Part shown: positions 14,745-32,306 of the stretch, in pieces
Position numbering within the stretch: position 1 is the first letter of the stretch
Layout of the letters: each line of letters begins with the position of its first letter
From: an uncultured Gammaproteobacteria bacterium
GTDB taxonomy: Bacteria; Patescibacteriota; Microgenomatia; Levybacterales; GWA1-39-11
Direction: 5' to 3'
DNA: 64,000 nucleotides
Assembly (NCBI GenBank): GCA_964425075.1
Contig: CAYRKM010000001.1
Coordinates: 601,827-665,826, forward strand
Notes under the pieces: model-generated
The model's input: only the letters and a program-made list of their open reading frames with translations
Database searches by the model: none
Told to the model about the DNA's origin: nothing
Program-made: the position numbers and the translations under genes

Positions 14745-16550
14745 ATGAAATCATTAAAAGCAGTAGCACAACTAGAACGCTTGGTATGGGCAGATGTATT
14801 AAGAGTAGTAGCAATTTATTTGGTACTTGTAGTTCATGCTTCCACAATGCCCTCATCAGCCTTTCCATTAAGTAATTCTTGGCCATACATAATTTCCTTT
14901 TCAATTGCAAAAATATGCGTGCCACTTTTTGTGATGTTAAGTGGCGCACTTCTTTTGGAAAAAAAGGAAACTTATAAAATGTTTTTCAAAAAAAGAATTT
15001 TAAAAGTGCTAACCCCTTGGATTGTTTGGACAGCGATTTATATGGGAATTAATTACTACACTAGAGATTTTCAACCACAAACTTTTTCTGAATGGAAATA
15101 TTATTTTACGCTGACTTTCTTTACTGAATTGTGGTTCCTACCTCTTATTTTTTCCATTTATTTATTAACTCCTATTATAAGACTTACCATTCCGTTATTA
15201 AAAAAAACTGACAAGATTTACATCATAATTTTGTGGTTTGTGTGGGTGTCGATTTTACCTTTCTTCAATTCAAGTCCCGCTTTTCCAAAACCATTCAACT
15301 CAGGACTTCTTTCATTGGCCGTATATTTTTCCGGGTACTTTCTTTTGGGCCATTTTTTAACAAAAATTAAGTATCCCAAGAATACTTTATGGTTCTCAAG
15401 TGTACTAATTATATTAGGCATACTAATTAATTTTGTTTCACTCTTTTTAGTTAATGAAAACGAATTAGTTCAATACCAAAGTTCTATTTTTGACTATATA
15501 GCACCTGATGAGTGGGGTTCAAACTCAATTGTTATTTCAAAATATGGAGCCAGAATAACCGTCGCATCAACTGAACAAAGCATAAGAGGATTAAGACACG
15601 GTGAGTATCGCCCAGACTTAGTCATATGTGATGATGTGGAAGATTTGAATAGTGTTAAAACACGAGAAGGTAGAGATAAAACATTTCAATGGTTAGTAGG
15701 AGAAGTTTTGCCAATTGGAGATCAGGGGACAAAGATTGTCATTGTAGGAAACCTACTACATGAAGATAGTCTCTTAATGAGATTGAAACAAGGAATCGAA
15801 AACCAAAAGTTAAATGGTAAGTTTTTTGCTTATCCACTCTTAGGCAAGGATAATGAAATTGCATGGAAGGATAAATTTCCTTCTCAAATCGATGTTGAGA
15901 AATTGCGCTCAAGTATAGGAACTGATTCAGCATGGTATAGAGAGTACCTTCTTCGAATCATCTCTGATGCAGAACGACTAGTCCATCCTGAGTGGATTGC
16001 CTATTACGATAAATCGCCTTCTGAAAGAGCTAATGGATTTAGATTTATTGCAACAGGTGTTGATCTTGCTATATCGCAAAAGGACTCAGCCGATTTCACA
16101 GCAATGGTGTCTGCAAAAATATTCGGACAGAAAGATGATCTAAGAGTTTATATCTTACCTTTCCCAATTAACAAAAGACTTAGTTTTCCAGAAACTTTTG
16201 AACAAGCAAAGAATCTTTCTGAAAATTTAGGAAATGGTCTTTACACAATGCTCTATATTGAAGATGTTGGGTATCAACAATCTTTAATCCAACACTTACA
16301 GGGGAATAATATTCCTGCAGTTGGAGTAAAGGTGTCAGGACAAGACAAAAGAGCAAGGCTTGCTTTAATAACCCATCTTATAAAACAAGGTAAAATACTT
16401 TTCCCGAAAAAAGGAGCAGAAGAATTAATACAACAGCTTACAGGTTTTAGCATTGAGAAGCATGACGATTTGGCAGATGCATTTTCCCTTCTAATTCTCA
16501 AGATTCAGGAGATGGATAATAAGCCTACATTCGATTACAGTTTTATCTAG
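14745..16550 (+). pseudogene. Chimeric ORF: acyltransferase-3 family membrane protein N-terminus (aa 1-~246) fused in frame to C-terminal ~355 aa of a phage terminase large subunit (lacks ATPase Walker A)
   Basis: N-terminus has Acyl_transf_3 pattern (LRVVAIYLVLVVHA, VPLFVMLSGALLL); from ~15483 the protein is ~85% identical by eye to residues ~132-490 of TerL at 29787..31313. Confidence 0.6.
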
Positions 16551-16551: not shown

Positions 16552-16767
16552 CTAAAACAAATCAGACATATTAACCCTCAAAGCTTTAGCCAGCTTTGTC
16601 ATCACCTTAAGCGATGGTGATTTTCTTCCTTGCTCGATGTGACCCATGTGAGTCCTGCTGATATGAATTTTCTCGGCCAACTCTTCTTGAGATAAGCCCA
16701 TATTTTTTCTGAGCTTCTGAATCCTTTTACCCAGCCTTTCTTTTGTTTGTTTTTGACCTAAAATCAT
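16552..16767 (-). CDS. XRE-family HTH transcriptional regulator
   Basis: LRKNMGLSQEELAEKIHISRTHMGHIEQGRKSPSLKVMTKLAKAL helix-turn-helix. Confidence 0.8.
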   Translation of the reverse strand: MILGQKQTKERLGKRIQKLRKNMGLSQEELAEKIHISRTHMGHIEQGRKSPSLKVMTKLAKALRVNMSDLF

Positions 16768-16885
16768 AAGTTAATTTTGATAGCTATAAGCAATCAACTC
16801 TACTAGCTTAAAGCGAGCAATTAGCTTCAAATACTGCTTGCTTTTATGTTCACTTTCGCTTATCATTCAAATTAGAGGAATAAAT

Positions 16886-17386
16886 ATGGCATTATCTGAA
16901 GAACAGAAAATCAAAATTAAAGAAGAAGAGAAAAAGAAGCTTGAGGAAGAGAAATATAGAGAGAATGTAAAGAAAAATCTTAAAAAGGGACCTTGGTGGA
17001 AACCTAGGGGAGTATTAGCGTGGGTCGCAGTAGTCTTTATAATTGGATGGATTATTTATGCTGTATCTACCAACTCTTCTACAAGTACACCTCCTAAAGA
17101 TACAACTAATCTAGATGGAAATGTTTCCTATAATGATTTGCAATTCAAGGTAAGTAATACCGAACAAAAAGATTGGGAATATTGCCACTTTACTCTAAAT
17201 AATGATTATCATTATCCGGGAAGCTCTTTTAGCGATAAAGCTGGGCCAATTAAGGCTGGTGAAACTGTGTTTATTAATGCGTCAAATTTTGCAAAAAGCG
17301 ATGGTACGAGATTTAATCCCTATTCGGTAAAGCCACAGGCTATAAATGTAGATTGCAACGGAAGATTCGGCTACTGGAAATGGTAA
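16886..17386 (+). CDS. Membrane-anchored DUF4352-like protein with Lys/Glu-rich N-terminal coiled coil
   Basis: KKGPWWK then TM helix then beta-rich extracellular domain; positional equivalent of DUF4352 gene at 31663. Confidence 0.4.
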   Translation: MALSEEQKIKIKEEEKKKLEEEKYRENVKKNLKKGPWWKPRGVLAWVAVVFIIGWIIYAVSTNSSTSTPPKDTTNLDGNVSYNDLQFKVSNTEQKDWEYCHFTLNNDYHYPGSSFSDKAGPIKAGETVFINASNFAKSDGTRFNPYSVKPQAINVDCNGRFGYWKW

Positions 17387-18832: not shown

Positions 18833-21505
18833 ATGCCACAACTATTCAAATCAATATATTTCCCTGATTATAATTCTGACAACAAAGAATCAAAATCATT
18901 TACGTTGGCATTTTCAGATAAGGATCAAGACATTTATGAACTATTAAGGACATCATCGAGCTTAGAGGTAAGAAGTTTATTATCAGTATTTTCATTTTCG
19001 GAATTAATTGATAAAGCTAATCAAGAAAGTCTACCTTTAAATACCTACTGTTTATGGAAAATCAGAAAAAACTTACAAAAGATTACCAGTCAAAATAAAA
19101 CTAACATCCAAACTAACTTATTTCCGCTAGATCCAGTACAGGTTACATTTGAAGGAGGAAAAAACTTACCCCTTCAATCTTGGTATCCCTACCTTGAAGG
19201 ATATTCTCCAGATTTTGTCGAGCACATTATAAAGAATTATTTAACACAGAACACAAGAACAGTTTATGATCCTTTTTCTGGATCTGGAACTACCCCTCTT
19301 GTAGCCTCATCTTTGAAGTATGATTCTTACTATTCAGAAATAAATCCCTTATTGCAATTTTTATCACAAACAAAATTCAGAGCTAAAAACATTAAAGATA
19401 AAAAAAAGACTATATCTAAGCTCACGATAATAAATAACACTCTTAAAAGTAAGATTCTAGCTTCTGATGAAGATATAGATCTTCGAGAAAACTATATTAG
19501 AACCTTTGGAAAGAGTAAGTTTTTCGATGATAAAGTTTTCTCTAACGTTTTAAGGACAAAGACGTATCTTAGGAGACTCGCTAAGCTAGATAGCTTGACA
19601 GCGGATTTAGTATGTACGGCAATCCTAGGAAGTTTAATAAAAGTATCTCTTTTAAAAAGGCAAGGTGATCTAAGGTATAAAACTAAAGATGAATTATCTA
19701 AAACAAAGACAGCTGAATATTTTGAAACTATACAGGCAAATCTGCAAAACATAATAAATGACATTTCGAATCTAAAGAAAGCTCCAGAGCCTATCTTCCT
19801 TACAGATGATGCAAGAAAAATAAAAGATTTAGACAAAATTGGTATAGACGCAGTAATAACTAGCCCCCCCTATCTGAACGGTACTAATTACTTTAGGAAT
19901 ACAAAGTTAGAGTTATGGTTTTTGGGATATTTAAAATCATTAAGTGATTTGACTGACTTTAGGCAACAGGCAGTAACTGCGGGTATTAATGACGTCTCTT
20001 TAAAAATTGAAAAGCAAATAGAAAATGAACTTCTTAAGGAGCTTTTGAAAGAAATTAATAAATCTGCATACGATCGAAGAATTCCTAAAATGATTCATGA
20101 TTATTTTGCAGATATGCAAACTATCTTTGAAGGATTAAAGAAACATTTAAATGATAATGCAGTTTTGGCTATCGATTTGGGAGATTCAATTTACAGTAAT
20201 GTTCATGTTAGAACTGACGAAATCCTGATTTCAATATTAAAACAATTAGGATATGAATTTGAGAGAAGCATTGTTTTGCGAAGACGGATATCCAAGAATG
20301 GCGAAGAACTGAGACAGGTGTTATTAATATTTAAATATAGACAATCCAAGCAGCCCAAAATAATCCCTATGAATAAATCTAATAAATGGGATCAGGATTG
20401 GAGTAAGTTTAAAAACGATTTGCCTCATCAGCAAATTCCATTATCAAAGAGAAATTGGGGAGATCCTATACATTCTTTGTGTTCATATCAAGGTAAGTTA
20501 AAGCCTTCTATTGCTCATATGTTAACCTCGATTTTTGTACCACCTAATGGCTCAGTATTAGATATTTTTGCAGGAGTTGGAACTATTCCACTAGAAGCCT
20601 CTCTCCAAGGAAAAAAATCATTTGGATTTGATATAAGTGCTCCTGCTGTTGCGATATCAAGAGCAAAATTATCTAAGATTTCAAGCGATAAAACTTATGA
20701 AATAATAAATGATCTTGAACAATATATTTTAAGCGGTAGAACTGACAAGTCTGAGCTTTCAAAAGCCCAAACATTTGGATTCAATAAGAAATTAATCGAT
20801 TACTTTCATCCAAATACATTAAAAGAGATTTTGTTAGCACGGGAATACTTCGGGAAGATAGGATATGATACACCAGAAAAGTCTATAGTTCTTGCCTCTA
20901 TTCTTCACATTCTTCATGGAAATAGACCGTATGCATTGAGTAGAAGATCTCACGGAATTACACCCTTTGCGCCTACAGGCGAATTTGAATATAAAAACCT
21001 TATAACTAAACTCAAAGAAAAAGTTTCCAGATCATTAAAATATGTTGATAGAAGTAATTTTGTAGAAGGAAATATGTATTTTCAAAATGCTCTAAATGAG
21101 TGGCCTAAAGAGATAAAGAATTTAGATGCAATCATCACAAGTCCGCCTTTCTTTGATAGTACGAGATTTTATCTTTCTAATTGGATGAGGATATGGTTTG
21201 CTGGCTGGGATGAAGAAAACTTCAAAACAGACTCTGTCGATTTCATAGAAGAATTACAAAAGAAAGATTTTTCCGTATATGACTCAATTTTTAAACAAGC
21301 CCGTGAGCGATTGAATAAAAATGGCGTATTTGTGATGCACTTAGGGAAAAGTAACAAGTGTAATATGGCAAAAATATTATCAGAAAAATCCAAGCCGTGG
21401 TTCAATACTTACGATATCTTTGAGGAAAGTGTAAGGACGGGAGAATCACATGGAGTCACAGATAAAGGAACAGTAGTCGACCATCAATATTTGGTATTAA
21501 ATTAG
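18833..21505 (+). CDS. Tandem two-domain DNA methyltransferase (two alpha-class N6A/N4C MTase domains)
   Basis: Motif I VYDPFSGSGTT + motif IV ITSPPYLNGTNYF in first half; VLDIFAGVGTIP + ITSPPFFDSTRFY in second half. Confidence 0.8.
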   Translation: MPQLFKSIYFPDYNSDNKESKSFTLAFSDKDQDIYELLRTSSSLEVRSLLSVFSFSELIDKANQESLPLNTYCLWKIRKNLQKITSQNKTNIQTNLFPLDPVQVTFEGGKNLPLQSWYPYLEGYSPDFVEHIIKNYLTQNTRTVYDPFSGSGTTPLVASSLKYDSYYSEINPLLQFLSQTKFRAKNIKDKKKTISKLTIINNTLKSKILASDEDIDLRENYIRTFGKSKFFDDKVFSNVLRTKTYLRRLAKLDSLTADLVCTAILGSLIKVSLLKRQGDLRYKTKDELSKTKTAEYFETIQANLQNIINDISNLKKAPEPIFLTDDARKIKDLDKIGIDAVITSPPYLNGTNYFRNTKLELWFLGYLKSLSDLTDFRQQAVTAGINDVSLKIEKQIENELLKELLKEINKSAYDRRIPKMIHDYFADMQTIFEGLKKHLNDNAVLAIDLGDSIYSNVHVRTDEILISILKQLGYEFERSIVLRRRISKNGEELRQVLLIFKYRQSKQPKIIPMNKSNKWDQDWSKFKNDLPHQQIPLSKRNWGDPIHSLCSYQGKLKPSIAHMLTSIFVPPNGSVLDIFAGVGTIPLEASLQGKKSFGFDISAPAVAISRAKLSKISSDKTYEIINDLEQYILSGRTDKSELSKAQTFGFNKKLIDYFHPNTLKEILLAREYFGKIGYDTPEKSIVLASILHILHGNRPYALSRRSHGITPFAPTGEFEYKNLITKLKEKVSRSLKYVDRSNFVEGNMYFQNALNEWPKEIKNLDAIITSPPFFDSTRFYLSNWMRIWFAGWDEENFKTDSVDFIEELQKKDFSVYDSIFKQARERLNKNGVFVMHLGKSNKCNMAKILSEKSKPWFNTYDIFEESVRTGESHGVTDKGTVVDHQYLVLN

Positions 21506-22548
21506 TATCCTAAAAGTTTTTTATTTGCGTCAGAAAGTTGTTCGACTAAATTATAGTCTTCAAGTAATTTCTTAATATCGTCAATTCTCCTACTTAAGTC
21601 CGTTGCAGATCTCACTGTCAGTAATCTTGTTACACACGCATTTACATCAATACGAGGATTAAGAATAGGCTCTCTTTTTGATATTAGCGATAAATCAGCT
21701 CCTGTAATCTGAGCTAAGCGTATAAGTTCCTCATTGGTATAAAAATCACTAGGCCACTTGTCGTTTTTCGCTGCATTTGCTTTTGTTGAGAGTAATGCTG
21801 CATTTTGTGAACTGAGAGGATAAAGCCACCTAGATGGCAAAATGTGATCGATTGCCCACGATCCTCTATCAGATTTGTCAATAATGATACCGGTTTTAAA
21901 ACATTTAGAATCAAATCGTTCAAACAATTCGTCTAAATCGACGGTTTGATTCTCACCCTCAAGTAGTAATTCAGCGGCTCTACGTTTGCTGGAAGATTCA
22001 TGTAGTTGTTGTTGCGTTCTTAGTGGGTTTAAGGTTGTGTTAATAACGGCTTTACAGCTTCTGCATTCAAGTTGTTTCTCCAGAGGTCCCCATCCAACGT
22101 GACGATCGAACGCCGACCCGGGAAGAACTCTACCACAGGTTCCGCACTGTTTCCAATAATTAGCTTTATCTGCTACTGCAATTCTAAAAAACGCTCTCCA
22201 AAATCGTTCTATATGCAAATCTCCTGGTAGGGTGTATTCTTCCTTCCAGTTTGTAAAAGGTGTTTCCTTGCCTGACGCATCAGTTAATGGTAATCCTGAC
22301 TGTCTTGAGTGAATATATCCACAAAAATCACATTTCCATTCTTCATTATCGTAAGCTTCTGTTTCCGATAGCAATCGTTCACCAATAGAATGCTTGTTAA
22401 GCATGTTACAACGTAGGCAATTAAAAATTACCCAGACATCATTGGGTTTTGCCCCAGCAATCCTAGGAATTTCCGTCCTGTTTGTAGTTGATCTTCTTGG
22501 CATATTGTTGCTTGTATTATATCCTAAGTGCCTTCTAAAGAAAAACAC
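21502..22548 (-). CDS. HNH-family endonuclease with zinc-ribbon (candidate restriction endonuclease partner of tandem MTase); start uncertain
   Basis: Multiple CxxC pairs (CLRC, CDFCGY, CGTCG, CRSC) and AIDHILP...N HNH-like motif; convergent and 4-bp overlapping with MTase. Confidence 0.55.
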   Translation of the reverse strand: MFFFRRHLGYNTSNNMPRRSTTNRTEIPRIAGAKPNDVWVIFNCLRCNMLNKHSIGERLLSETEAYDNEEWKCDFCGYIHSRQSGLPLTDASGKETPFTNWKEEYTLPGDLHIERFWRAFFRIAVADKANYWKQCGTCGRVLPGSAFDRHVGWGPLEKQLECRSCKAVINTTLNPLRTQQQLHESSSKRRAAELLLEGENQTVDLDELFERFDSKCFKTGIIIDKSDRGSWAIDHILPSRWLYPLSSQNAALLSTKANAAKNDKWPSDFYTNEELIRLAQITGADLSLISKREPILNPRIDVNACVTRLLTVRSATDLSRRIDDIKKLLEDYNLVEQLSDANKKLLGY

Positions 22549-22692
22549 CTATGATTGGAATTCGAACCGCAACCTCGGTATTCAGATGTTTAAAGGTGTG
22601 AATAGTGAGGGTACGGTGAGATACTAACACGTGCTTGCTGAGAGGCTCGGTCTAGAACCTTCTTATCCTTATAACGATTGTCTCACATCAAG

Positions 22693-22730
22693 GCTAAATG
22701 AGACAAACGAGACACTATAAAAAAGGGTGT
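22693..22730 (+). repeat. Copy A of conserved hairpin motif (aGGCTAAATGAGACAAAyGAGACACyATAAAA)
   Basis: Near-identical 38-nt stretch also at 53786-53822; contains GTCTCA...TGAGAC stem. Confidence 0.6.
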
Positions 22731-22788
22731 CTTATTTTCTATAATATCCCATAACAACACAACAGATAAATGATATATTTTGATATAG

Positions 22789-23382
22789 TTGTGTTTCTGC
22801 CCTTTAATTATGGCAAGGGCAAGAAAATATACAACATTTAATAGGGCAAGGCTTATGTTATTTACTCATTCATATGCCTGTTATGCTATTACTTGCCATG
22901 TAAAAACGAAATATAAAATTAATGATAACCTAACGCCACGAGAATTACGAAAGAGATATATCAATAAGAGAATTATTCCAGAAATTTCTAGGCTTTCTTA
23001 TTCGCTACATTTTGACTACGAAGTTCTATGGAGAGCAATACTATTGAATAAAAAGCCGCTACTGAGTAAGCAGGTAAGAAGCAGTGATGGAATTAGGTTA
23101 TATCTTGCCATCGAGGACGAACTGATTGCTCTTGCCGAATCAAAAAGGCACAGATCACGAGACTTTTTCGACCCTGATTATGAAAATGAATATGCGCTAC
23201 TCAGTATTGCAATAGAACGAGCAGCAGGAAGTCTTCTTAATGACGTAGAGGATGACTTTGTCTTTGATCAGCAATGTGAAGAAATGAAGAAGATATGTTT
23301 CAAGTGGTATTACAAAATTGCGTATCGATATAAACTGCCGACAACAAGAATTGTCCCGTTTGTTTTGAGACTTATCAGCTGA
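22789..23382 (+). CDS. Hypothetical protein (start uncertain)
   Basis: ORF only; convergent with helicase gene, 4-bp gap. Confidence 0.35.
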   Translation: MCFCPLIMARARKYTTFNRARLMLFTHSYACYAITCHVKTKYKINDNLTPRELRKRYINKRIIPEISRLSYSLHFDYEVLWRAILLNKKPLLSKQVRSSDGIRLYLAIEDELIALAESKRHRSRDFFDPDYENEYALLSIAIERAAGSLLNDVEDDFVFDQQCEEMKKICFKWYYKIAYRYKLPTTRIVPFVLRLIS

Positions 23383-23385: not shown

Positions 23386-26300
23386 TTATTGACTGGCTAT
23401 CACTTCTAAGTTTATTGCGTGTGTTTCTTTAAGATAATTTTCTGTAACGGCGAGTAGTTCTAGTTGACTATTACTTGCTTGGTTTTTAGATAAACCTGGC
23501 TGAACAACTGTGATTGTAAATTCAGGAATAAGATAAGGTACTTTATTTCTTATTTCTTCGAGTTTTTCTAAATCACCTTTTTCAAATCTTGAAACCAATC
23601 CTTTCTTTTGTCGACTCACCTCACGTAAAGTTAAGTGATCGATAAGTTTTTGTATATCATCTCTCCAATGAACACTTTTTTGTGCTTGACCGCAAACTGC
23701 ATATAGATCTTCGACTCTTGCTCCGGGAGTGGCAGATTGGGAGAACTTACAATGGTATAAATCAACTATTAATTTCTCCTCTGTCATTTTAATTCCTATT
23801 ACATCCGCAGCTTCATAGGAATCGTCATCGTCAAAAACGACATCATATTGTGAATCGTGGGTATCCTTTAGTGCCTCTTGTATGACTCGATATTGTATTG
23901 AGTCAGTATCTTTATTTACTGTCTGCGATTCTTTACTCAAATCAATACCATTCCAGTCCCATATTTGAATCTTATCCTTATCAAAAGGTGCAGGCGGATC
24001 AGCAGGATTTTCAAAAAGAACGTTGTATTGTAGGTATGAATCGTTTTCAAAACGAACAATAGGAGAATTCTCTTTTAACCAATCAGGAAGGGATTGTGGT
24101 TTTCTCGCAATTATAATTTGTGCAGTGTCTTGCCCAGTCGGTAAATACTCAACATTGTTATTATTAAATGCAATTTTATATTCAACACTTTTGTTTTCAC
24201 TAAAAACCTGGAACTTTATTGGGCCTGTTTTATTAAAGTCCGTTAACTCAATACCTGCTTCATACAATGGAATCGTCTCTCCCGCGATATTTAGTTCAAC
24301 AGTTTCCTCGCTTTTCAAGAGTAAGTCTTCTGGCCACTCTATTGTTAGCGGTACGAGGTTTGGCCGTTGTGTTATTAAAGTTGGGCGCAATACATATTTA
24401 AGAATATCTGTTGCAGAAAAAGTATCATCAAGTAATTTTGTGCCTGTTTTTCGGCACCATTCAATCCATTCCGAGATATCATCTGCTATTTTATAAGACC
24501 AAATCCTCCCTTTGTAAGATGACCCGATGCTTGTTTTACTACCATTCTCAAAACCTCTTCCAAAAAGATTGGATTTAATCCTATTTTGTTGCTGAGCGTC
24601 CGAGATTGCTGATAGTATGTCTGATCCAACATACATTGTGAATCGCATTGCTCGATTTAAGGAATGTGTTAAGCCAAGATTCATAAGGCTTAATCTATTG
24701 ATCCCAGAGAGAGTACGAAACACTTGTTCTCCACGAACTATTTCAACATCATCGCCACAAATAGCTTTTGCTAATTCCCCATGGAAGGACCTGTTGTTTG
24801 AGCTATTGATAAATAATAATTTTTGAGCTTCATCCCAATGAATCAAATACAGATCCCAAATCGTATTATGGATATCCTTAAAATTGCCCCAAGAAATTGG
24901 TTCTTTCTCGCAGGTAACAAAGAACACGACTTTTTCTCCTTGATTTACAGTAGGGTCAATAAAAAGCCTAGATTCTTTTACTACTTTTGGTATGTTTTCG
25001 GGAGTCCACCGCGTATTATTTGTTTTATAAACAACAGTGCTCATTTTAGGCAAAATATTTTGAGGTAAGAATTCTGGAGGCAAATCCACAAATCCTTCAA
25101 AAAACTGAGATAGCTTTTCCTGTTTGGTAGTCGCTCCTTCACTTAAGTTCCGTAGTAATTTATCCCAATCAGCATCTTCTGCATATAAGTCTTTTAACGC
25201 TTCTTCAACACCAGGGTTGGCGATATTTGCAACAATCGTTGCGGAACCAATATTTGGTTTTGTTCTTGTAAATCTTCCTGTAAACTGCAATGTAATGGCA
25301 AGACCTTTATGCACATCATGGAGTGCTGCAATTTTTAATTCAGGTAAGTCAAAACCTTCTCCAAACATGTCAACACATACAATAATTCTTGATTTTCTTT
25401 CATTTATTTCATTAAGAGATTGGCGTTTTTCAGCCACTTTTTTCTTACTATGAAAAAGTTGAGGATTATGATTTGCGCCGTGTTGTTGGTAAATAGCAAA
25501 TATATCTCGCGCACGAGTTATACTATCTGCTCGCGCCAAGATAATATGGTCTAGATTTTGTGCAAGGTCTTCTTCCAGCTTTTTGATTGCTCTTTTGGCA
25601 ATAGTCTCATCGGCACGTTGTTTATTATAATCTCTTACACCAATAAAACTGATTTGCTTGAAATACCCTTCGCTTTGCGCTTTTCGTAATGGATAATTAA
25701 AAATTACCTTTCCATCAATATGTCTTCCATCTCCTCTAAAAGGTGTGGCGGTAAATTGTAATATGGTTTTTTCTTTGAAGAATTTTCTGAATTTTTGCCA
25801 AGTTGGTGCTGAAATATGATGTGCCTCATCTATAAAAAGGTACGTAGCTGTTCCAGCCATTGCCTTTTGAATTTCTTCTGAGCATCCACCTACTATTGCC
25901 ATTGTCGTTATCACCACATTGCATGACCCAAAAAATTTATTTACCTCATCTACTGTTTTGAGTCGATGCTCGAGGGTCCCCACGATAGGATTTTCTGCTT
26001 TCCTTCCAACAGCTCCAATTTTTCTTAATAATCCGAGACCTAGGAATTTATTCGTGATCTGATCTCTTAGCGCATCTGTTGGTACAACTACTAGGATTTT
26101 ATCTATTCGCTCGCAAACCATAAGTGCAAGCATTGTTTCCGTTTTTCCTGTACCAGTAGGCATAACAATGGTGGCTGATGCGTTTGTTACTTTCCAATGA
26201 GCGAGTGCGGCATGGAGTGCACCGATTTGGGGCGGACGCAATCCTTCTTCAAGAATTTGATCATTTTCTCGTTTTTCTTCGACGAAAGAGAATTGCTTAT

Positions 26301-26466
26301 CCCAGGATTTAATTACTTTTTCGCAAGATCTGGGGAATGTAGCAATTCTTCTATTACTAAGTGTTAACGCTCTAGGTTTATCGCCGGAAAATGTAGCAGA
26401 TTTATTAACCTGCCTAATAGGATTACCTAATACTTTTGTGTTGATTATAAATTGATCATTATTCAC
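23386..26466 (-). CDS. SF2 helicase (DEAH, Type III Res-like) with ~500-aa C-terminal extension containing a PD-(D/E)xK-like motif
   Basis: Motif I MPTGTGKT, motif II FIDEAHH, motif III TATP, motif VI QFTGRFTR; C-terminal DVIGIKMTEEK pattern. Confidence 0.75.
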   Translation of the reverse strand: MNNDQFIINTKVLGNPIRQVNKSATFSGDKPRALTLSNRRIATFPRSCEKVIKSWDKQFSFVEEKRENDQILEEGLRPPQIGALHAALAHWKVTNASATIVMPTGTGKTETMLALMVCERIDKILVVVPTDALRDQITNKFLGLGLLRKIGAVGRKAENPIVGTLEHRLKTVDEVNKFFGSCNVVITTMAIVGGCSEEIQKAMAGTATYLFIDEAHHISAPTWQKFRKFFKEKTILQFTATPFRGDGRHIDGKVIFNYPLRKAQSEGYFKQISFIGVRDYNKQRADETIAKRAIKKLEEDLAQNLDHIILARADSITRARDIFAIYQQHGANHNPQLFHSKKKVAEKRQSLNEINERKSRIIVCVDMFGEGFDLPELKIAALHDVHKGLAITLQFTGRFTRTKPNIGSATIVANIANPGVEEALKDLYAEDADWDKLLRNLSEGATTKQEKLSQFFEGFVDLPPEFLPQNILPKMSTVVYKTNNTRWTPENIPKVVKESRLFIDPTVNQGEKVVFFVTCEKEPISWGNFKDIHNTIWDLYLIHWDEAQKLLFINSSNNRSFHGELAKAICGDDVEIVRGEQVFRTLSGINRLSLMNLGLTHSLNRAMRFTMYVGSDILSAISDAQQQNRIKSNLFGRGFENGSKTSIGSSYKGRIWSYKIADDISEWIEWCRKTGTKLLDDTFSATDILKYVLRPTLITQRPNLVPLTIEWPEDLLLKSEETVELNIAGETIPLYEAGIELTDFNKTGPIKFQVFSENKSVEYKIAFNNNNVEYLPTGQDTAQIIIARKPQSLPDWLKENSPIVRFENDSYLQYNVLFENPADPPAPFDKDKIQIWDWNGIDLSKESQTVNKDTDSIQYRVIQEALKDTHDSQYDVVFDDDDSYEAADVIGIKMTEEKLIVDLYHCKFSQSATPGARVEDLYAVCGQAQKSVHWRDDIQKLIDHLTLREVSRQKKGLVSRFEKGDLEKLEEIRNKVPYLIPEFTITVVQPGLSKNQASNSQLELLAVTENYLKETHAINLEVIASQ

Positions 26467-26539: not shown

Positions 26540-27283
26540 ATGAAAAAAGACTATTTTGCTGAAAAAACGAAGCGACTGAAACAGGAAATAAAAGTGCTTG
26601 TCAGCAGACCTGCATTTCAGAAAGAAATTGCTGACCTCAGGAAAAAATGGAATATTCCTTCCGAAGGAATAAAGAATGAGGATGACAATTTAGAATGGAA
26701 TCATAAGCTTGATATTGCAACTGACGAGTATTACAAAACAGAATGGCCGAAGTGTCGAGCAGAGATTGATAGCTTAAATAAAGAGAAAAAGTTCCTAGAA
26801 GCTGAGGATAAAAGAAAAGAGTGTAACGCTAAAGCTCCAATGCATGCATTTCGTGAGGATGTATGGGGTGTCGTCAGAAAATATCGCCTTTCTCCACGTT
26901 GGCACACTGGTATTCGTCGCTACCTTTTATTTAATGATCCCGATAATCTGAACTTGACCGCAGGAGTAACTATGGTTACGACATGGGAAAACGGTATGAA
27001 AAGACTTTCGCTTGAAATTGATGGCGATACGACCCTCAATGACATCAGGCATATTTGGCCGTGGGTGAAGCGAATGCAGAAAGATTTAATGTATAGGAAG
27101 GCTGATAAGTTCCAGCCTATTAAGAACTTTGACCGAGATCAAAGAATTTATGAGCTTGAACAAGAAGGAAAGTCGGAAAAGGATATTGGGGATATCATAC
27201 AGCAAGAATTTGGTGACTCACTTGATTACAACGAAATAAATATAGCTATCAACCGCTACAAGAAACGCCTCAACATCAATTAG
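26540..27283 (+). CDS. Hypothetical protein (phage-like, basic/acidic mixed)
   Basis: ORF only. Confidence 0.4.
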   Translation: MKKDYFAEKTKRLKQEIKVLVSRPAFQKEIADLRKKWNIPSEGIKNEDDNLEWNHKLDIATDEYYKTEWPKCRAEIDSLNKEKKFLEAEDKRKECNAKAPMHAFREDVWGVVRKYRLSPRWHTGIRRYLLFNDPDNLNLTAGVTMVTTWENGMKRLSLEIDGDTTLNDIRHIWPWVKRMQKDLMYRKADKFQPIKNFDRDQRIYELEQEGKSEKDIGDIIQQEFGDSLDYNEINIAINRYKKRLNIN

Positions 27284-27333: not shown

Positions 27334-28626
27334 ATGTTGAACGCACATACTAAACAAGAGAACCCATATTCTATCGTTTATGTTTCAGCTCAAGAACTTC
27401 GCCCCGCTGAATACAATCCAAGAAAATGGGATGAGGAAGCTGCCAAGCAATTAACGGAGAGTATTAAGCGCTTCGGATTGATAGATCCCATTATTGCGAA
27501 TGGTGCATCTAATCGAAAAAATATTGTAATTGGTGGACATTTCAGACTCGAAGTAGGAAAAAGACTAGGTATAGAAAAAGTACCTGTGGTTTATGTTAAT
27601 ATCCCCAATCTTCAGAAGGAAAAGGAGTTGAATCTACGTCTTAACCGCAATACTGGAGAATGGGATTTTGAACTTCTGAAATCATTTAATGTCGAGCTGT
27701 TACTTGATGTTGGATTTGATGATAGCGATCTTTCACACATTTGGGATGATAACTTGGGAGTCGAAAATGACGACTTTGATGTTAAAAAAGAAATTGAAAA
27801 GATCAAAGAACCAAAAAGCAAATGGGGAGATATATACCAGCTTGGATCGCACCGACTTATTTGTGGAGACGCGACAGATCCCGAAGTACTCAAAAAGCTA
27901 GTACAGGATGACAAGATATCCATGCTCTACTGCGATCCCCCATATAATATCTCGCTCGATTACAGCAACGGGATTGGAACAAATGGAAAATATGGCGGGA
28001 AAACGAATGACAAGAAATCTGAAGAAGAATATAAAGCGTTTCTCAAGAAAACGCTTGAAAATGGGCTATCAACTGCTTTTCCTGATGCACACGTGTTTTA
28101 TTGGTGTGATGAAAATTACATTGGACTAATCCAGGGAATATACAAGGAACTTGGGATTATAAACAAACGAGTTTGTCTTTGGATTAAGAATAACCAGAAC
28201 GTCACTCCACAAACTGCATTTAATAAAGTGTATGAACCATGCGTTTATGGTATTCAAGGTAATCCGTATCTTTCCGAATCAGTCAAAAACCTGAATGAGG
28301 TTCTCAATAAAGAGGTAGGAACAGGAAATCGACTGACAGATGATATCCTTGACCTTTTTAATATATGGCTAGCAAAACGTCTTCCTGCACAAGAATACGA
28401 ACATCCGACAGAAAAACCACCAACACTCCATGAAAAAGCATTACGTCGTTGCACGAAAGCTGGAGACATCGTGCTTGATGTATTCGGTGGCTCCGGATCT
28501 ACTCTCATTGCGTGTGAACAACTCAAACGCAGAGCATATCTTTGCGAAATTGAGCCTATTTTTTGTGACCTTATTATCAAGCGCTTCGAGAAGTTGACTG
28601 GACAGGAGGCAAAGCTATGCAAATAA
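27334..28626 (+). CDS. ParB-like nuclease domain fused to beta-class DNA methyltransferase
   Basis: N-terminal ParB/Srx fold (VIGGHFRLEVGKRLG); motif IV CDPPYNI then motif I VLDVFGGSGSTLIA. Confidence 0.8.
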   Translation: MLNAHTKQENPYSIVYVSAQELRPAEYNPRKWDEEAAKQLTESIKRFGLIDPIIANGASNRKNIVIGGHFRLEVGKRLGIEKVPVVYVNIPNLQKEKELNLRLNRNTGEWDFELLKSFNVELLLDVGFDDSDLSHIWDDNLGVENDDFDVKKEIEKIKEPKSKWGDIYQLGSHRLICGDATDPEVLKKLVQDDKISMLYCDPPYNISLDYSNGIGTNGKYGGKTNDKKSEEEYKAFLKKTLENGLSTAFPDAHVFYWCDENYIGLIQGIYKELGIINKRVCLWIKNNQNVTPQTAFNKVYEPCVYGIQGNPYLSESVKNLNEVLNKEVGTGNRLTDDILDLFNIWLAKRLPAQEYEHPTEKPPTLHEKALRRCTKAGDIVLDVFGGSGSTLIACEQLKRRAYLCEIEPIFCDLIIKRFEKLTGQEAKLCK

Positions 28627-29372
28627 AAATAGGTGATGTTCTACAACTCGGTGATCATCGCTTGGCGTGTGGAGATGCAAAAGACTCAGCGTTGTTAAAG
28701 AGGCTTATTTTAGATGATCGAATCTCTCTCCTTCTGACGGATCCGCCCTACGGCGTGGCTTATGTTGAAGGAAAAGCTGAACTTACGGAAATTAAGAGTA
28801 ATAAAAAGATAGCCAACGATCACAACCAAACAGAAGGAACGTATCGCCATTTTACGAAGGAATGGCTAGAAGCAATAAAGCCATATCTTGCCAAGAAAAA
28901 TTCTTTTTACATTTTTAACTCAGACAAAATGGTGTTCTCCTTGCGAGATGGCATTGTTGATGCGGGTTTTCGACTCACACAACTACTTGTGTGGATCAAA
29001 AACAATGTTGTCGTCGGACGGCTTCACTATTTACCACAACATGAGCTGATCGCATACGGATGGTTTGGAAGTCATGAGTTCTATAAAGCAAAGGACAAAA
29101 GTATCCTCATCTATCCAAAACCTAATAAAAGCCCACTTCATCCAACCATGAAGCCAGTCGGACTTCTCAGAAACTTAATCCTTAATAGCTCGAAAATTGA
29201 TGACTATGTCTATGACCCATTCGGCGGATCGGGATCAACACTTATTGCTTGCGAACAAACGAAAAGGAAATGCCTCATGGTGGAGATAGATCCGGAGTAC
29301 TGCCAAGTGATTATTGATCGCTTTGAAAAAGTTACAGGTTACAAAGCAGAAAGGACAAAAGATGGAAAATAA
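28617..29372 (+). CDS. DNA methyltransferase (beta-class N4C/N6A)
   Basis: Motif IV LLLTDPPYGV followed by motif I VYDPFGGSGSTLIA. Confidence 0.8.
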   Translation: MQIKIGDVLQLGDHRLACGDAKDSALLKRLILDDRISLLLTDPPYGVAYVEGKAELTEIKSNKKIANDHNQTEGTYRHFTKEWLEAIKPYLAKKNSFYIFNSDKMVFSLRDGIVDAGFRLTQLLVWIKNNVVVGRLHYLPQHELIAYGWFGSHEFYKAKDKSILIYPKPNKSPLHPTMKPVGLLRNLILNSSKIDDYVYDPFGGSGSTLIACEQTKRKCLMVEIDPEYCQVIIDRFEKVTGYKAERTKDGK

Positions 29373-29790
29373 TCCGACGATTCAGAAGCGAATAGATAAA
29401 AATCAGGAACTACTTATTGAGCAGCTTAAGAAAACGCCAATTGTTCAAGTTGCGTGTGAGAAAGTCGGGGTAGGCCGAGCTACTTATTACCGATGGAGAA
29501 AAGAAAATGAAGTATTTGCCGAACAAGCAGATGAAGCAATAGCTGAAGGAGCGTTACTTGTGAATGACATGGCCGAGTCCCAACTCATGGCAGCGATTCG
29601 GGATAAAAATCTCACAGCCATCATTTTCTGGTTGAAGCACCATCACCCTCACTACGCAACGAAAGTTGAAGTGACGGCTAGACTAAAAGCTGATAACGAA
29701 GTTTTAACGCCTGAACAAGAAGCACTAGTAACGAAAGCATTAAAACTTGCCTCATTAATTCCTGAAACAAAGGAGGAAGTAAAACAATGA
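29362..29790 (+). CDS. Terminase small subunit-like HTH protein
   Basis: VACEKVGVGRATYYRWRKE helix-turn-helix; immediately upstream of and overlapping TerL. Confidence 0.5.
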   Translation: MENNPTIQKRIDKNQELLIEQLKKTPIVQVACEKVGVGRATYYRWRKENEVFAEQADEAIAEGALLVNDMAESQLMAAIRDKNLTAIIFWLKHHHPHYATKVEVTARLKADNEVLTPEQEALVTKALKLASLIPETKEEVKQ

Positions 29791-31313
29791 TTGTTGGAGC
29801 AATTACAGATAACGTGCTCGAAGGAATAAAAAGAGAAAGATCCGTGAGACGAGAAGTCGCAAGAAGTAGCCATCTTTGGTTTTTCTCAATATACCTTGGA
29901 CACTATATCAAGTATCCATTTGCGCCGTTTCATTCAGAAATGTTTGCGCTGACGGAAAATGCTGACATACGATTATCAGTTCTTGTAGCATTTCGTGGTT
30001 CTGGAAAATCAACGCTTATAACTCTGTCTTATCCAATCTGGGCAATTGTGGGAGCACAGCAAAAGAAGTTTGTGCTCATCCTCTCTCAAACCCAAACGCA
30101 AGCAAGACTTCATATGGCAAACATAAAACGAGAGCTTGAGAGTAATGACTTATTAAAAGCAGATATTGGACCATTTGAAGAAGTAAGTGACGAATGGGGA
30201 TCAAATTCAATTGTCATCTCAAAATATGGCGCACGTATTACTGTTGCCTCAACGGAGCAGAGTATTCGAGGATTAAGACATGGGGAGCATCGACCTGATC
30301 TGGTTATTTGTGATGATGTGGAGGATTTAAATAGTGTAAAAACCCGGGAAGGACGAGACAAAACATTCCAATGGCTGGTTGGTGAAGTGCTCCCAATCGG
30401 AGATCAAGAAACAAAGATTGTAATTGTTGGAAATCTTTTGCACGAAGACAGTCTCTTAATGCGACTGAAAAAAGGAATTGAAAATGAAAAACTTAATGGA
30501 AAATATTTTGCCTATCCACTCCTAGATATAAATAATACTATTGCATGGCAGGCTAAATTTAAAACTTTAGAGGACGTTGAGAGATTACGGGCAAGTATTG
30601 GAACAGACTCTGCGTGGTATCGAGAGTATTTATTACGAATAATTTCTGATGCGGACCGCTTAGTCCATCCTGAATGGATTCAGTATTATGACCGGATACC
30701 ATCTGAAGATAGTGGTGACTTCCATTACACTGCAACTGGTATTGATCTGGCGATATCTCAACGGGAGTCTGCAGACTATACTGCAATGGTTTCAGCTAAA
30801 GTATTTGGCTACTATGAGAAATTAAAAATATACATCCTGCCCCATCCCGTAAATGAACGTTTAAGTTTTCCTGAAACCTACGAGAAAGCAAAACAATTGT
30901 CCAAAGATTTAGGGGACGGTCACTATACTAAATTATTTATCGAAGATGTAGGATATCAAGCTGCTCTTATCCAAGACTTATCAAATCACAATGTTCCAGC
31001 AGAAGGGGTAAAGGTATCAGGACAAGATAAAAGATCAAGACTTGCTTTGATAACGCATCTTATTAAGCAAGGAAAAGTTCTCTTCCCTAAGGGAAACCAA
31101 GCTGAAGAACTTATTATGCAACTTACCGGGTTCGGTATTGAGAAACATGACGATTTAGCTGATGCGTTTTCGCTTCTACTTCTAAAGATCCTGGAAGAGG
31201 ATCAAGGAGAGCCAAGTGTCTATATCATCGATATGGGAAGCAGTCTTTATGATAGATATTCACCACTCGGGAATCTGAACGAAGACCGTTTTACACTTGA
31301 TACAAAATTTTAG
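29787..31313 (+). CDS. Phage terminase large subunit (ATPase + nuclease)
   Basis: Walker A AFRGSGKSTLI, Walker B LVICDDVED, C-terminal RNaseH-like nuclease with DDLADAF. Confidence 0.85.
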   Translation: MIVGAITDNVLEGIKRERSVRREVARSSHLWFFSIYLGHYIKYPFAPFHSEMFALTENADIRLSVLVAFRGSGKSTLITLSYPIWAIVGAQQKKFVLILSQTQTQARLHMANIKRELESNDLLKADIGPFEEVSDEWGSNSIVISKYGARITVASTEQSIRGLRHGEHRPDLVICDDVEDLNSVKTREGRDKTFQWLVGEVLPIGDQETKIVIVGNLLHEDSLLMRLKKGIENEKLNGKYFAYPLLDINNTIAWQAKFKTLEDVERLRASIGTDSAWYREYLLRIISDADRLVHPEWIQYYDRIPSEDSGDFHYTATGIDLAISQRESADYTAMVSAKVFGYYEKLKIYILPHPVNERLSFPETYEKAKQLSKDLGDGHYTKLFIEDVGYQAALIQDLSNHNVPAEGVKVSGQDKRSRLALITHLIKQGKVLFPKGNQAEELIMQLTGFGIEKHDDLADAFSLLLLKILEEDQGEPSVYIIDMGSSLYDRYSPLGNLNEDRFTLDTKF

Positions 31314-31580
31314 CTAAACAGTCGAAGGATACAAATCATCAACTTTTACCTTCAATGCTTTGGCAATACGATAGAGCGTGTAGGATGAAGGTGTTCTTTT
31401 CGCAGTCTCTACAAGATTAATATATGTCCGATAAAAACCACATTCAGCAGAAAGTTGATCTTGAGACCACCCCTTCTTCTTTCTCGCCTCCCTTATATTG
31501 TTACCGACAATTTCGGTAAACTTATACTTACTCAGCATATAGCATATTTTCCTAGGCTCTCCTACAACTGTGCAACGCAC
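31314..31580 (-). CDS. XRE-family HTH transcriptional regulator
   Basis: NNIREARKKKGWSQDQLSAECGFYRTYINLVETAKRTPS helix-turn-helix. Confidence 0.75.
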   Translation of the reverse strand: MRCTVVGEPRKICYMLSKYKFTEIVGNNIREARKKKGWSQDQLSAECGFYRTYINLVETAKRTPSSYTLYRIAKALKVKVDDLYPSTV

Positions 31581-31662: not shown

Positions 31663-32223
31663 ATGAAGAAATTACTTAAATGGGGAGGAATCGGACTCAT
31701 AATTATTATTGTGCTTGCAGTAATTGCAAGTAGCGGTGGAGATAAATCAGGTAACCAATCCACAACTGACTCAAACTCAGCGGGATCGCCTGATAGCAAG
31801 CAGGACAATACTGCTAAAACATACGGTCTTAATGAGACTGTCCAGGACGGAGATCTTGCTTTTACCGTTACCGGTGTTGAAACAGCCAAAACGCTTGGAA
31901 ATCAATTCACCGAGAAAGATTCTCAGGGCACGTTTTACGTTGTAACCCTGAAAATTGAAAATAAGGGAAACAAAACCGCAACCTTTGATAGCTCAATGGC
32001 GAAAGTAACAGACGACCAAGGCCGTGAATTTGAACGCTCTATCGAAGGCCAAACCGCCAAAGGTATGGCGCAGGGTAGTGTGGATTTATTTCTACAGCAA
32101 ATTCAACCATCATTATCTGTAACAGGAGACTTGGTGTTTGATCTGCCAGCGGATATGCAAAATCCAATGCTGGTTGTTAAAGGTTCACTCTTTGCAAAAG
32201 GAGCGAAAATTAAGCTTCAGTAA
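31663..32223 (+). CDS. DUF4352 domain membrane-anchored protein
   Basis: N-terminal TM, Ser/Thr-rich linker, FTVTGVE...YVVTLKIENKG...DDQGREF pattern of DUF4352; strong SD AAAGGAGGTG 8 nt upstream. Confidence 0.6.
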   Translation: MKKLLKWGGIGLIIIIVLAVIASSGGDKSGNQSTTDSNSAGSPDSKQDNTAKTYGLNETVQDGDLAFTVTGVETAKTLGNQFTEKDSQGTFYVVTLKIENKGNKTATFDSSMAKVTDDQGREFERSIEGQTAKGMAQGSVDLFLQQIQPSLSVTGDLVFDLPADMQNPMLVVKGSLFAKGAKIKLQ

Positions 32224-32224
32224 A

Positions 32225-32274
32225 AATAACGGATCCGTTATTTTCAAAAGCCCCTTCTTTAAGGAGGGGCTTTT
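32225..32274 (+). terminator. Two tandem intrinsic terminators after DUF4352 gene
   Basis: AATAACGGATCCGTTATTtt perfect palindrome then AAAAGCCCCTtctttaaggAGGGGCTTTT hairpin with T-tract. Confidence 0.6.
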
Positions 32275-32279
32275 AGTTC

Positions 32280-32306
32280 TTGACACACTACTACACAATG
32301 TAGTAG
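32280..32306 (+). promoter_or_regulatory. Promoter -35 TTGACA with overlapping cop-box-like palindromic operator CTACTACA-caa-TGTAGTAG upstream of csoR
   Basis: TTGACA at 32280-32285; perfect 8-bp inverted repeat at 32288-32306; same motif recurs 3 more times in island. Confidence 0.5.

What the first reader, a model, noticed from the sequence alone, without database searches (positions are those of the whole stretch)
14745..16550. In-frame chimera of a disrupted acyltransferase-3 gene and a terminase nuclease-domain fragment marks an element boundary
The 601-aa ORF switches at about nt 15483 from an Acyl_transf_3 membrane protein (truncated to ~246 aa) to the C-terminal two-thirds of a terminase large subunit lacking its Walker A ATPase. 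This looks like the left junction of an insertion or deletion event that destroyed the acyltransferase gene.
Basis: seen in the sequence. Interest (0 to 1): 0.55.

Follow-up and report, generated by a model that had tools for sequence, protein, structure and literature searches.

The report
Deletion scar fusing acyltransferase and terminase
A one-off rearrangement, most likely a deletion, joined the front of a bacterial membrane acyltransferase gene in frame to the back of a mobile-element terminase gene; the result is an ordinary gene remnant at the edge of an unusual cluster of capsid-less mobile elements.

Summary
The 601-aa ORF (14745-16550, +) is real and chimeric. Codons 1-254 are the N-terminal ~73% of an Acyl_transf_3 protein. 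Codons 255-601 are the C-terminal ~70% of a large terminase (TerL). The switch is at nt 15506|15507, not ~15483. The acyltransferase part lacks its last ~95 residues, including an invariant SLGIY..H motif. The TerL part lacks Walker A. The junction is 100% identical in two independent Logan assemblies. No other such fusion appeared among the 120 listed hits of a 5.8-billion-protein search.

The TerL fragment belongs to a 5'-truncated copy (A, 15507 to ~22.6 kb) of a mobile-element family found in Patescibacteria. The family core is ParB-methylase, TerS, TerL, Xre-HTH, cargo and a large serine recombinase, with no portal or capsid genes. An intact copy (B, ~22.65-48.7 kb, copper-resistance cargo) follows. 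A probable third copy begins at ~53.74 kb.

Integrated relatives keep TerL intact, so the junction is not a native element end. Neither the acyltransferase C-terminus nor a TerL N-terminus occurs elsewhere in the window. The best reading is a recent deletion that truncated both genes and is in frame by 1-in-3 chance. The chimera itself is ordinary. The element family is the more interesting lead.

The parts
14745..16550 (+). Chimeric 601-aa ORF (acyltransferase N-part fused in frame to TerL C-part)
14745..15506 (+). Codons 1-254 of an Acyl_transf_3 O-acyltransferase (host gene). It lacks about the last 95 residues, including at least 3 hydrophobic segments and the invariant S-L-G-I-Y-x-x-H motif.
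15504..15509 (+). Junction CCT|GAT (15506|15507). The last acyltransferase codon is P254 and the first TerL codon is D255, equivalent to D135 of the intact TerL.
15507..16550 (+). 3' 347 codons of the TerL gene of element A. It has no Walker A; Walker B, the VGN motif and the nuclease motifs are kept. It is 77% identical to the intact TerL of element B and 84% identical to P0002.
16552..16767 (-). Xre-type HTH regulator of element A. It is conserved after TerL in L006, L009 and L010.
16838..17386 (+). 182-aa membrane protein of element A, with a homologue after TerL/HTH in L006
17445..18797 (+). Large serine recombinase A (Resolvase + Recombinase + Zn_ribbon_recom), full length. The likely ATG start is 17457, because Logan aa.
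18833..21505 (+). 890-aa N6/N4 DNA methylase, 35 nt downstream of recombinase A; assigned to element A
21502..22548 (-). 348-aa endonuclease VII/HNH-like protein (phrog_1035); probable nuclease partner of the methylase
22650..22790 (+). Conserved left-end motif of element B (..CCTTATAAC..TGTCTCAC..GGCTAAATGAGACAAACGAGACACTATAAAAA.. plus AAATGATATATTTTGATATA). The same motif occurs at L006:3374 and L097:1235.
22789..23382 (+). 197-aa protein, first gene of element B (54% identical homologue in the same position in L006)
23386..26466 (-). 1026-aa ResIII/DEAD helicase (left-arm defence-like gene of B)
26540..27283 (+). 247-aa conserved core protein of the family (66% identical in L006)
27334..29372 (+). 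ParB_N-DNA methylase (27334-28626) and a second DNA methylase (28617-29372)
29314..29790 (+). Small terminase-like HTH protein (TerS)
29787..31313 (+). Intact 508-aa TerL of element B, with Walker A GSGKST at aa 71-76
31314..31580 (-). Xre-type HTH of element B
31663..47304 (+). Copper/heavy-metal resistance cargo of B: two P-type ATPases, a multicopper oxidase, a CsoR-type repressor, a BlaI/BlaR-like pair and a DsbA-like protein
47362..48702 (+). Large serine recombinase B (68% identical to A)
53737..53857 (+). Second copy of the family's left-end motif, about 30 nt from tRNA-Glu (53633-53706, -); probable left end of a third element that runs off the window

Best explanation
The ORF is a rearrangement scar, most likely from a single deletion. 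One breakpoint lay after codon 254 of a host surface-polysaccharide-type O-acyltransferase gene. The other lay before codon ~135 of the TerL gene of an integrated mobile element (element A).

The deletion removed four things:
- the acyltransferase C-terminus;
- any host DNA and the attL that lay between the two genes;
- the element's left arm, namely the left-end motif, defence genes, the 247-aa core protein, ParB-methylase and TerS;
- the TerL N-terminus with Walker A.

The two reading frames happened to match, which is a 1-in-3 chance. The acyltransferase promoter and start codon therefore now head a 601-aa ORF. If translated, the product would be a membrane-anchored polypeptide. Neither half should keep its original activity: the acyltransferase half lacks its last transmembrane segments and an invariant motif, and the TerL half lacks the ATP-binding P-loop.

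Shown: the chimeric composition, the exact junction, its reality in independent assemblies, its uniqueness among the hits listed, the truncated state of element A compared with intact relatives, and the absence of the missing halves from the window.

Inferred: that the event was a deletion, that it is recent, and that the product has no function.
For: - Domain composition and junction.
- Missing motifs: Walker A is absent. The invariant SLGIY..H motif of the acyltransferase family lies in the missing C-terminus.
- Reality of the junction: independent Logan assemblies are 100% identical across it, and another covers recombinase A, the methylase and the nuclease.
- Uniqueness: in a search of 5.8e9 proteins only the query itself is full length among the 120 best hits listed. 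Acyltransferase relatives are mostly 320-388-aa proteins with Acyl_transf_3 as their only Pfam domain.
- Native architecture: h247, ParB-MTase, TerS, intact TerL, HTH(-), cargo and a large serine recombinase occur in L006 (550-kb chromosome contig), L009 (746-kb contig), L010, L092, L093, L096 and L097. Element A has only the part from TerL codon ~135 rightwards, and it lacks the left-end motif that precedes element B and the elements in L006 and L097.
- Missing halves: tblastn finds no acyltransferase C-terminus and no separate TerL N-terminus anywhere in the window on either strand.
- Host flank: the left flank is core host DNA.
- Recency: the TerL fragment has no stop codon or frameshift in 347 codons, only 5 conservative singleton changes, and no rate acceleration in Tajima tests.
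Against: - No ancestral (intact) allele or closely related genome was available. The best acyltransferase relative is 58% identical and not syntenic.
- I could read only 64 kb of an 835-kb contig. A reciprocal junction elsewhere, which would indicate an inversion or translocation, is therefore not excluded.
- The absence of any decay in the TerL fragment, together with the in-frame fusion behind an intact start, would also fit a product that is still under selection.
Confidence: 0.7

Rival explanations
1. The event was an inversion or translocation rather than a deletion. The same two breakpoints were used, but the reciprocal product (TerL N-terminus joined to the acyltransferase C-terminus) survives elsewhere on the 835-kb chromosome.
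For: I could not read the rest of the genome. It is not among the GTDB representatives scanned. The profile search for the acyltransferase C-terminus had doubtful sensitivity, because it returned only 11 short fragments and not even the known full-length relatives.
Against: No reciprocal piece lies within 14.7 kb to the left or 47 kb to the right. No hit came from an 835,411-bp contig. A deletion needs fewer events.
Confidence: 0.12
2. A linear, already 5'-truncated element fragment (for example a packaged or transduced piece that began near the pac site in terS/terL) inserted illegitimately into the acyltransferase gene, and the downstream part of that gene was lost at the same time.
For: The fragment begins about 400 nt into terL, just downstream of terS, where headful packaging often starts (established knowledge about pac phages, not tested here). 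The family encodes its own TerS and TerL.
Against: A simple insertion predicts the acyltransferase remainder at the right end of A (~22.6 kb) or of B (~49 kb), and it is absent from both. No evidence for packaging exists.
Confidence: 0.07
3. The fusion is a functional protein, for example a membrane-tethered TerL nuclease domain co-opted for exclusion of related elements or phages.
For: The fusion is in frame behind an intact start. There are no stops in 601 codons. The nuclease-domain motifs are intact and the lineage shows no accelerated evolution.
Against: It is a single occurrence with no homologous fusion among the hits listed. Both halves lack family-invariant motifs. An in-frame join is a 1-in-3 chance. 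Lack of decay is equally expected for a recent event.
Confidence: 0.04
4. The junction is a native attL. On this view the serine recombinase's attP lies inside terL and attB lies inside the acyltransferase gene, so that excision would restore both genes (a programmed gene-splitting element like SPbeta/spsM or skin/sigK).
For: A large serine recombinase lies 1.9 kb downstream. Such recombinases are known to split host genes (established knowledge).
Against: The closest relatives of element A carry an intact terL while integrated in large chromosomal contigs, with terS and ParB-MTase upstream. Element B in this same window is integrated with terL intact. No reciprocal attR-type junction occurs in the window. 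The family has a different conserved left end.
Confidence: 0.03
5. The junction is an assembly chimera in the metagenome-assembled genome.
For: The source is evidently a metagenome-assembled Patescibacteria genome, and the window holds two related elements that could confuse an assembler.
Against: Two independent Logan assemblies of two sequencing runs reproduce 2.7-2.9 kb across the junction without a single difference. There is no sequence similarity between the acyltransferase and terL at the join that could cause a false join.
Confidence: 0.02

Closest known systems
Gene remnants and fusion pseudogenes at deletion boundaries of decaying prophages and genomic islands (cryptic-prophage decay)
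   Same: A mobile element has lost one end. A host gene and an element gene are both truncated and abut without an att site. The remaining element keeps its recombinase and some cargo.
   Different: The two remnants happen to be in frame and form one long ORF. The decaying element is not a classical prophage but a capsid-less TerS/TerL element.
Large-serine-recombinase prophages and elements that split host genes (SPbeta in spsM, skin in sigK, A118 in comK)
   Same: An element carrying a large serine recombinase lies next to an interrupted host gene.
   Different: In those systems the break is at attB/attP, the other half of the gene lies at the other end of the element, and excision restores it. 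Here the break is inside an element gene (terL), the other half is absent from the window, and relatives keep terL intact when integrated.
Phage satellites / PICI-like islands (integrase, packaging-redirecting TerS, no full virion gene set)
   Same: Elements A and B have an integrase, TerS, regulators and cargo but no portal or capsid genes. A distant TerL relative (36% identity) sits in a genuine phage next to portal, protease and major head protein genes.
   Different: These elements carry a large terminase and a ParB-methylase, use a large serine recombinase, and occur in Patescibacteria. Helper dependence, induction and packaging are untested. I found no description of this architecture in the literature searches.

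Membership tests
Acyl_transf_3 (PF01757) membrane O-acyltransferase | N-terminal conserved core (His in the first helix, F-V-M-L-S-G-A-L-L motif), scoring above the Pfam gathering threshold | tested here: met
   The score is 101.1 bits against a cut-off of 31. H31 and FVMLSGALL are aligned with invariant columns.
Acyl_transf_3 (PF01757) membrane O-acyltransferase | Complete domain, including the C-terminal transmembrane segments and the invariant S-L-G-I-Y-x-x-H motif of this subfamily | tested here: not met
   The profile is matched only to position 249 of 326. Relatives continue for about 95 more residues that hold the invariant SLGIY..H motif. At least 3 hydrophobic segments are missing.
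Large terminase subunit (phrog_38; Terminase_6N/6C) | Walker A P-loop of the packaging ATPase | tested here: not met
   GSGKST is at aa 71-76 of the intact paralogue and is absent from the chimera. The match begins at the equivalent of aa 135.
Large terminase subunit (phrog_38; Terminase_6N/6C) | Walker B/catalytic carboxylate and an RNaseH-like nuclease domain | tested here: met
   DLVICDD, VGN, DLAIS, EDVGYQ and HDDLADA are present. Terminase_6C scores 31.1 bits against a cut-off of 22.6.
Native attL junction of an element integrated by a large serine recombinase | The junction coincides with the element's conserved end, and the other half of the host gene lies at the other end | tested here: not met
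   Relatives have an intact terL with upstream terS and ParB-MTase, and a different conserved left-end motif. No acyltransferase C-terminus occurs in the window.
Genuine multidomain architecture (acyltransferase-terminase) | Recurrence of the same fusion in other genomes | tested here: not met
   Only the query itself is full length among the 120 best hits listed. The apparent 84% coverage of P0051 is a BLAST over-extension of an ordinary 481-aa TerL.
Phage satellite / PICI-like element (for elements A and B, not for the ORF) | An integrase plus packaging gene(s) but no capsid, portal or tail genes | tested here: met
   Element B (~22.65-48.7 kb) has a large serine recombinase, TerS and TerL, with only defence-like and copper-resistance genes otherwise.
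Phage satellite / PICI-like element (for elements A and B, not for the ORF) | Helper-phage-dependent induction, excision and packaging | not testable with these tools
   This needs experiments, or virome data that show the element DNA in particles.

The most novel reading that the evidence does not exclude
The chimera is the decay scar at the edge of an array of three members (A truncated, B intact, C partly in the window) of a so-far undescribed family of integrative elements. The family is capsid-less, encodes TerS, TerL and a ParB-methylase, and uses a large serine recombinase. It is widespread in Microgenomates/Patescibacteria and carries defence and metal-resistance cargo. The elements would be phage satellites or self-packaging transducing elements, a kind of mobile element not yet documented for these ultra-small bacteria. 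A much less likely finding-centred variant (about 0.04) is that the fusion itself is expressed as a membrane-tethered terminase nuclease with an exclusion function.
Probability: 0.3. Interest if true: 0.55.

Novelty: new member of a known kind. Interest (0 to 1): 0.22.

Why it matters
The ORF itself mostly matters for annotation. It should be labelled a fusion pseudogene, not an acyltransferase and not a terminase. It also dates a recent loss of a surface-polysaccharide O-acyltransferase in this lineage, which might alter the cell surface. Its wider value is as a pointer. It exposes a hotspot that holds several copies of a conserved terminase-plus-serine-recombinase element family in Patescibacteria. 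This family moves copper-resistance and restriction/defence genes without any virion genes. If these elements are satellites or self-packaging elements, they would be a route of horizontal transfer in a phylum whose mobile elements are poorly known.

Tried and rejected
1. The remainder in the window. A tblastn search with six intact acyltransferases and with TerL aa 1-150 against the whole window found nothing beyond the known pieces.
2. The remainder elsewhere in the genome. The genome-contig scan with an acyltransferase alignment did not return this genome, so it is not a GTDB representative there. A profile of the acyltransferase C-terminus against 5.8e9 proteins returned only 11 short fragments, none from the 835,411-bp contig, and missed the known full-length relatives. 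I treat that search as inconclusive. Its best hit, P0241, comes from an unrelated sample and context.
3. An ancestral allele. The nearest acyltransferases are at most 58% identical and not syntenic. A 27-mer ending at the junction has no match in the JGI metagenome contigs.
4. Exact look-ups of both recombinases failed, probably because the gene calls use a different start codon. The methylase look-up succeeded instead.
5. I considered recent gene conversion between TerL A and TerL B near the junction, because the first 25 residues are identical. I rejected it because the DNA there differs at many synonymous sites.
6. I considered the 50-nt repeat at 22.68 and 53.78 kb as a tRNA-linked att duplication. 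There is no tRNA or Rfam match at 22.3-23.0 kb, and it turned out to be a family-wide left-end motif.
7. The palindrome GGTTCGGAACC as an att core occurs only once in the window and is not above chance.
8. Promoter and terminator scans around the ORF were at background level.
9. Four literature searches found no description of this element architecture.

Full report
**Observation.** The ORF 14745..16550 (+) exists and encodes 601 aa from an ATG start. Pfam finds Acyl_transf_3 (E 8.4e-29; aa 14-265 on profile positions 2-249 of 326) and Terminase_6C (31.1 bits against a gathering score of 22.6; aa 438-585). PHROGs finds phrog_38, a large terminase (E 4.9e-53; aa 254-593 on profile 377-709 of 760), and phrog_3333, an O-acetyltransferase (aa 12-236). 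The ORF is therefore a real two-part chimera.

**Exact junction.** I aligned the ORF with six intact relatives of 345-351 aa.
- Acyltransferase similarity runs through the conserved 'FDY(F/I)AP' (aa 249-254).
- The relatives then continue 'GIVITS...' for about 95 more residues. These hold a motif that is invariant in 13 relatives, S-L-G-I-Y-x-x-H.
- The chimera instead continues 'DEWGSNSIVISKYGARITVASTEQS'. This is identical to residues 135-159 of an intact 508-aa TerL encoded in the same window at 29787-31313. The two proteins are 77% identical over 355 aa.
- At the DNA level the switch lies between CCT (15504-15506) and GAT (15507-15509).

**What each half lacks.**
- The retained TerL part is 347 aa, against a family median of 504 aa.
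- It lacks Walker A (GSGKST at aa 71-76 of the intact copy).
- It keeps Walker B (DLVICDD), the VGN motif and the nuclease-domain motifs.
- A crude hydropathy scan shows at least three C-terminal hydrophobic segments missing from the acyltransferase part.

**Reality.** The exact 601-aa product is encoded on two Logan contigs from two sequencing runs, SRR14271365 and SRR14271372. These contigs are 100% identical to window 14663-17536 and 14661-17379. Their left ends coincide with a perfect hairpin (CCCCAAGTTTTAACTTGGGG at 14661-14680), not with the junction. A third Logan contig independently confirms the adjacency of recombinase A, the methylase and the nuclease. An assembly artefact is therefore very unlikely.

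**Uniqueness.** In a search of about 5.8e9 proteins, only the query itself covers the full length among the 120 best hits listed. The other 119 are 420-513-aa terminases covering 56-63% of the query. The one apparent exception, P0051 at 84% coverage, is a BLAST over-extension of an ordinary 481-aa TerL that has a Walker A motif. Relatives of the N-terminal half are mostly 320-388-aa proteins with Acyl_transf_3 as their only Pfam domain, and the best is 58% identical.

**Context: host side.** To the left is core chromosome: SecF, YqeY, CCA-adding enzyme, RecJ, an Asp/Asn-tRNA synthetase, a D-Ala-D-Ala carboxypeptidase, Glu-tRNA synthetase, a PMT_2 glycosyltransferase and an MFS transporter.

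**Context: element side.** To the right are two related mobile elements.
- Element A runs from 15507 to ~22.6 kb. It holds TerL-C, Xre-HTH (-), a 182-aa membrane protein, large serine recombinase A, an 890-aa DNA methylase and an endonuclease-VII/HNH-like protein.
- Element B runs from ~22.65 to 48.7 kb. In order it holds:
  - a conserved left-end motif and a 197-aa protein;
  - a ResIII helicase (-) and a 247-aa protein;
  - ParB-methylase, a second methylase, TerS and the intact TerL;
  - Xre-HTH (-);
  - 15.6 kb of copper-resistance genes;
  - large serine recombinase B, which is 68% identical to A.

Neither element has portal, capsid or tail genes.

**The element family.** The same core (247-aa protein, ParB-methylase, TerS, TerL, HTH, variable cargo, large serine recombinase) recurs in other contigs: L006 (550-kb contig), L009 (746-kb contig), L010, L092, L093, L096 and L097. 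The few hits that carry source names are Patescibacteria: Roizmanbacteria, Microgenomates and 'Patescibacteria group'. The TerL is at most 28% identical to any TerL in GenBank phages. A 36%-identical relative (L102) sits in a genuine phage, next to portal, protease and major-head genes.

**The left-end motif.** A conserved ~90-nt motif (..CCTTATA..TGTCTCAC..GGCTAAATGAGACAAAYGAGACA.TATAAAA..) was found at four places:
- the left end of B at 22.68 kb;
- L006:3374, upstream of the 197-aa homologue;
- L097:1235, directly after a host MacB/FtsX gene;
- window ~53.74-53.86 kb, beside tRNA-Glu.

Genes to the right of that last copy have homologues in or beside the left arms of other elements. A third element probably starts there and runs off the window.

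**Why a deletion scar.**
1. Integrated relatives, including the clade closest to A (82-84% identity), keep terL intact with terS and ParB-methylase upstream. The junction is therefore not a native end or att site.
2. Element A lacks everything left of TerL codon ~135, including the family's left-end motif.
3. Neither the acyltransferase C-terminus nor a TerL N-terminus occurs anywhere else in the window on either strand. A simple insertion, which would leave the remainder at the right end of A or B, is therefore excluded.
4. An in-frame join has a prior probability of one in three and needs no special explanation.
5. The TerL fragment has no stop or frameshift. It has only 5 conservative singleton substitutions, within a family range of 0-19. 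Tajima tests give 11-16 lineage-specific changes in A against 22-31 in intact sisters, so there is no acceleration. My rough estimate is that about 6% neutral divergence would be enough to make a stop codon likely. This fits a recent event.

**What is inferred.** That the event was a deletion rather than an inversion with a distant reciprocal junction is inference. I could not read the remaining ~770 kb of the contig.

**How it works.** I conclude that it does not work as either enzyme. The acyltransferase promoter and start probably still drive transcription and translation of a membrane-anchored polypeptide, but this is inferred, and the promoter scan was uninformative. The acyltransferase half lacks family-invariant C-terminal elements. 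The terminase half lacks the P-loop needed for ATP-driven packaging. The biological consequences are loss of this O-acyltransferase and immobilisation or decay of element A's packaging module. A's recombinase, HTH regulator and methylase/nuclease pair remain intact.

**Rivals.** The alternatives and my confidence in each are as follows; the evidence and refuting results are listed in the structured fields.
- Inversion or translocation: 0.12.
- Illegitimate insertion of a truncated linear fragment with an accompanying deletion: 0.07.
- A functional neo-fusion: 0.04.
- A programmed att site inside terL: 0.03.
- Misassembly: 0.02.

**Comparison with what is known.** The ORF is an example of a fusion pseudogene at the eroded edge of a mobile element. 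Elements such as SPbeta, skin and A118 split host genes with a large serine recombinase, and this case resembles them only superficially. Here the break is in an element gene, the partner half is missing, and relatives keep that gene intact when integrated. The elements themselves resemble phage satellites and PICIs in having an integrase and packaging genes without virion genes. They differ in carrying TerL and a ParB-methylase, in using a large serine recombinase, and in occurring in Patescibacteria. Four literature searches found no description of them. These searches were limited and do not prove novelty.

**Verdict.** The chimera is of low intrinsic interest (0.22) and is a new member of a known kind. 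The surrounding array of terminase-plus-serine-recombinase elements is the lead worth following.

Noticed in passing
window 15507-48702 and ~53740-64000; loci L006, L009, L010, L092, L093, L096, L097: This is a conserved family of capsid-less integrative elements in Patescibacteria. Its core is a 247-aa protein, ParB-methylase, TerS, TerL, Xre-HTH, variable cargo and a large serine recombinase, with a variable defence-like left arm on the minus strand. Two to three copies lie in an array in this window. The TerL proteins are 60-84% identical across more than 100 protein clusters, yet at most 28% identical to any GenBank phage TerL.
   Followed up: partly
window 22650-22790 and 53737-53857; L006:3300-3420; L097:1170-1290: A conserved ~90-nt motif (..CCTTATA..TGTCTCAC..GGCTAAATGAGACAAAYGAGACA.TATAAAA.., followed in the window by AAATGATATAnTTTGATATA) marks the left end of the elements. 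It lies next to a host MacB/FtsX gene in L097, after another serine recombinase gene in L006, and about 30 nt from tRNA-Glu at 53.74 kb. It could be a promoter/operator or part of the attachment site.
   Followed up: partly
window 17397-17477 and 47314-47394: An ~80-nt region directly upstream of both serine recombinase genes is conserved (70% identity; shared core GCGGTACCTTGT). It may be a regulatory or leader region of the recombinase gene.
   Followed up: no
window 31663-47304: Element B carries a 15.6-kb copper/heavy-metal resistance cargo between TerL and the recombinase. It includes two P-type ATPases, a multicopper oxidase, a CsoR-type repressor, a BlaI/BlaR1-like pair, a DsbA-like thioredoxin, a DUF4352 protein and a YncE-like beta-propeller. 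Other family members carry different cargo at the same position (MarR/MFS/oxidoreductases in L006).
   Followed up: partly
window 53873-63811 (minus strand): This is a run of large minus-strand ORFs (148, 333, 108, 133, 237, 736, 555 and 825 aa). None has a Pfam match except a DUF559-like protein. The 555-aa and 237-aa proteins have homologues in or beside the left arms of elements in L094, L097 and L006. They are candidate novel defence genes of a third element.
   Followed up: partly
window 2516-2695: There are three tandem copies of a 60-nt unit (97% and 80% identity) inside the ORF of the CCA-adding/poly(A) polymerase-family enzyme (1383-2870, -). This amounts to an in-frame 20-aa repeat near its N-terminus.
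   Followed up: no
L092:3899-6914 and L093:2498-5516: Two IMG/VR contigs of the same element family carry two tandem TerL paralogues, each 51-55% identical to TerL B, between TerS and the serine recombinase.
   Followed up: no
L011-L014, L016-L021 (genome contigs): The closest genomic relatives of the acyltransferase lie in TPA MAGs titled 'uncultured Gammaproteobacteria bacterium', while other close relatives are Patescibacteria (Levyibacteriota, Pacebacteria). The Gammaproteobacteria labels look doubtful.
   Followed up: no
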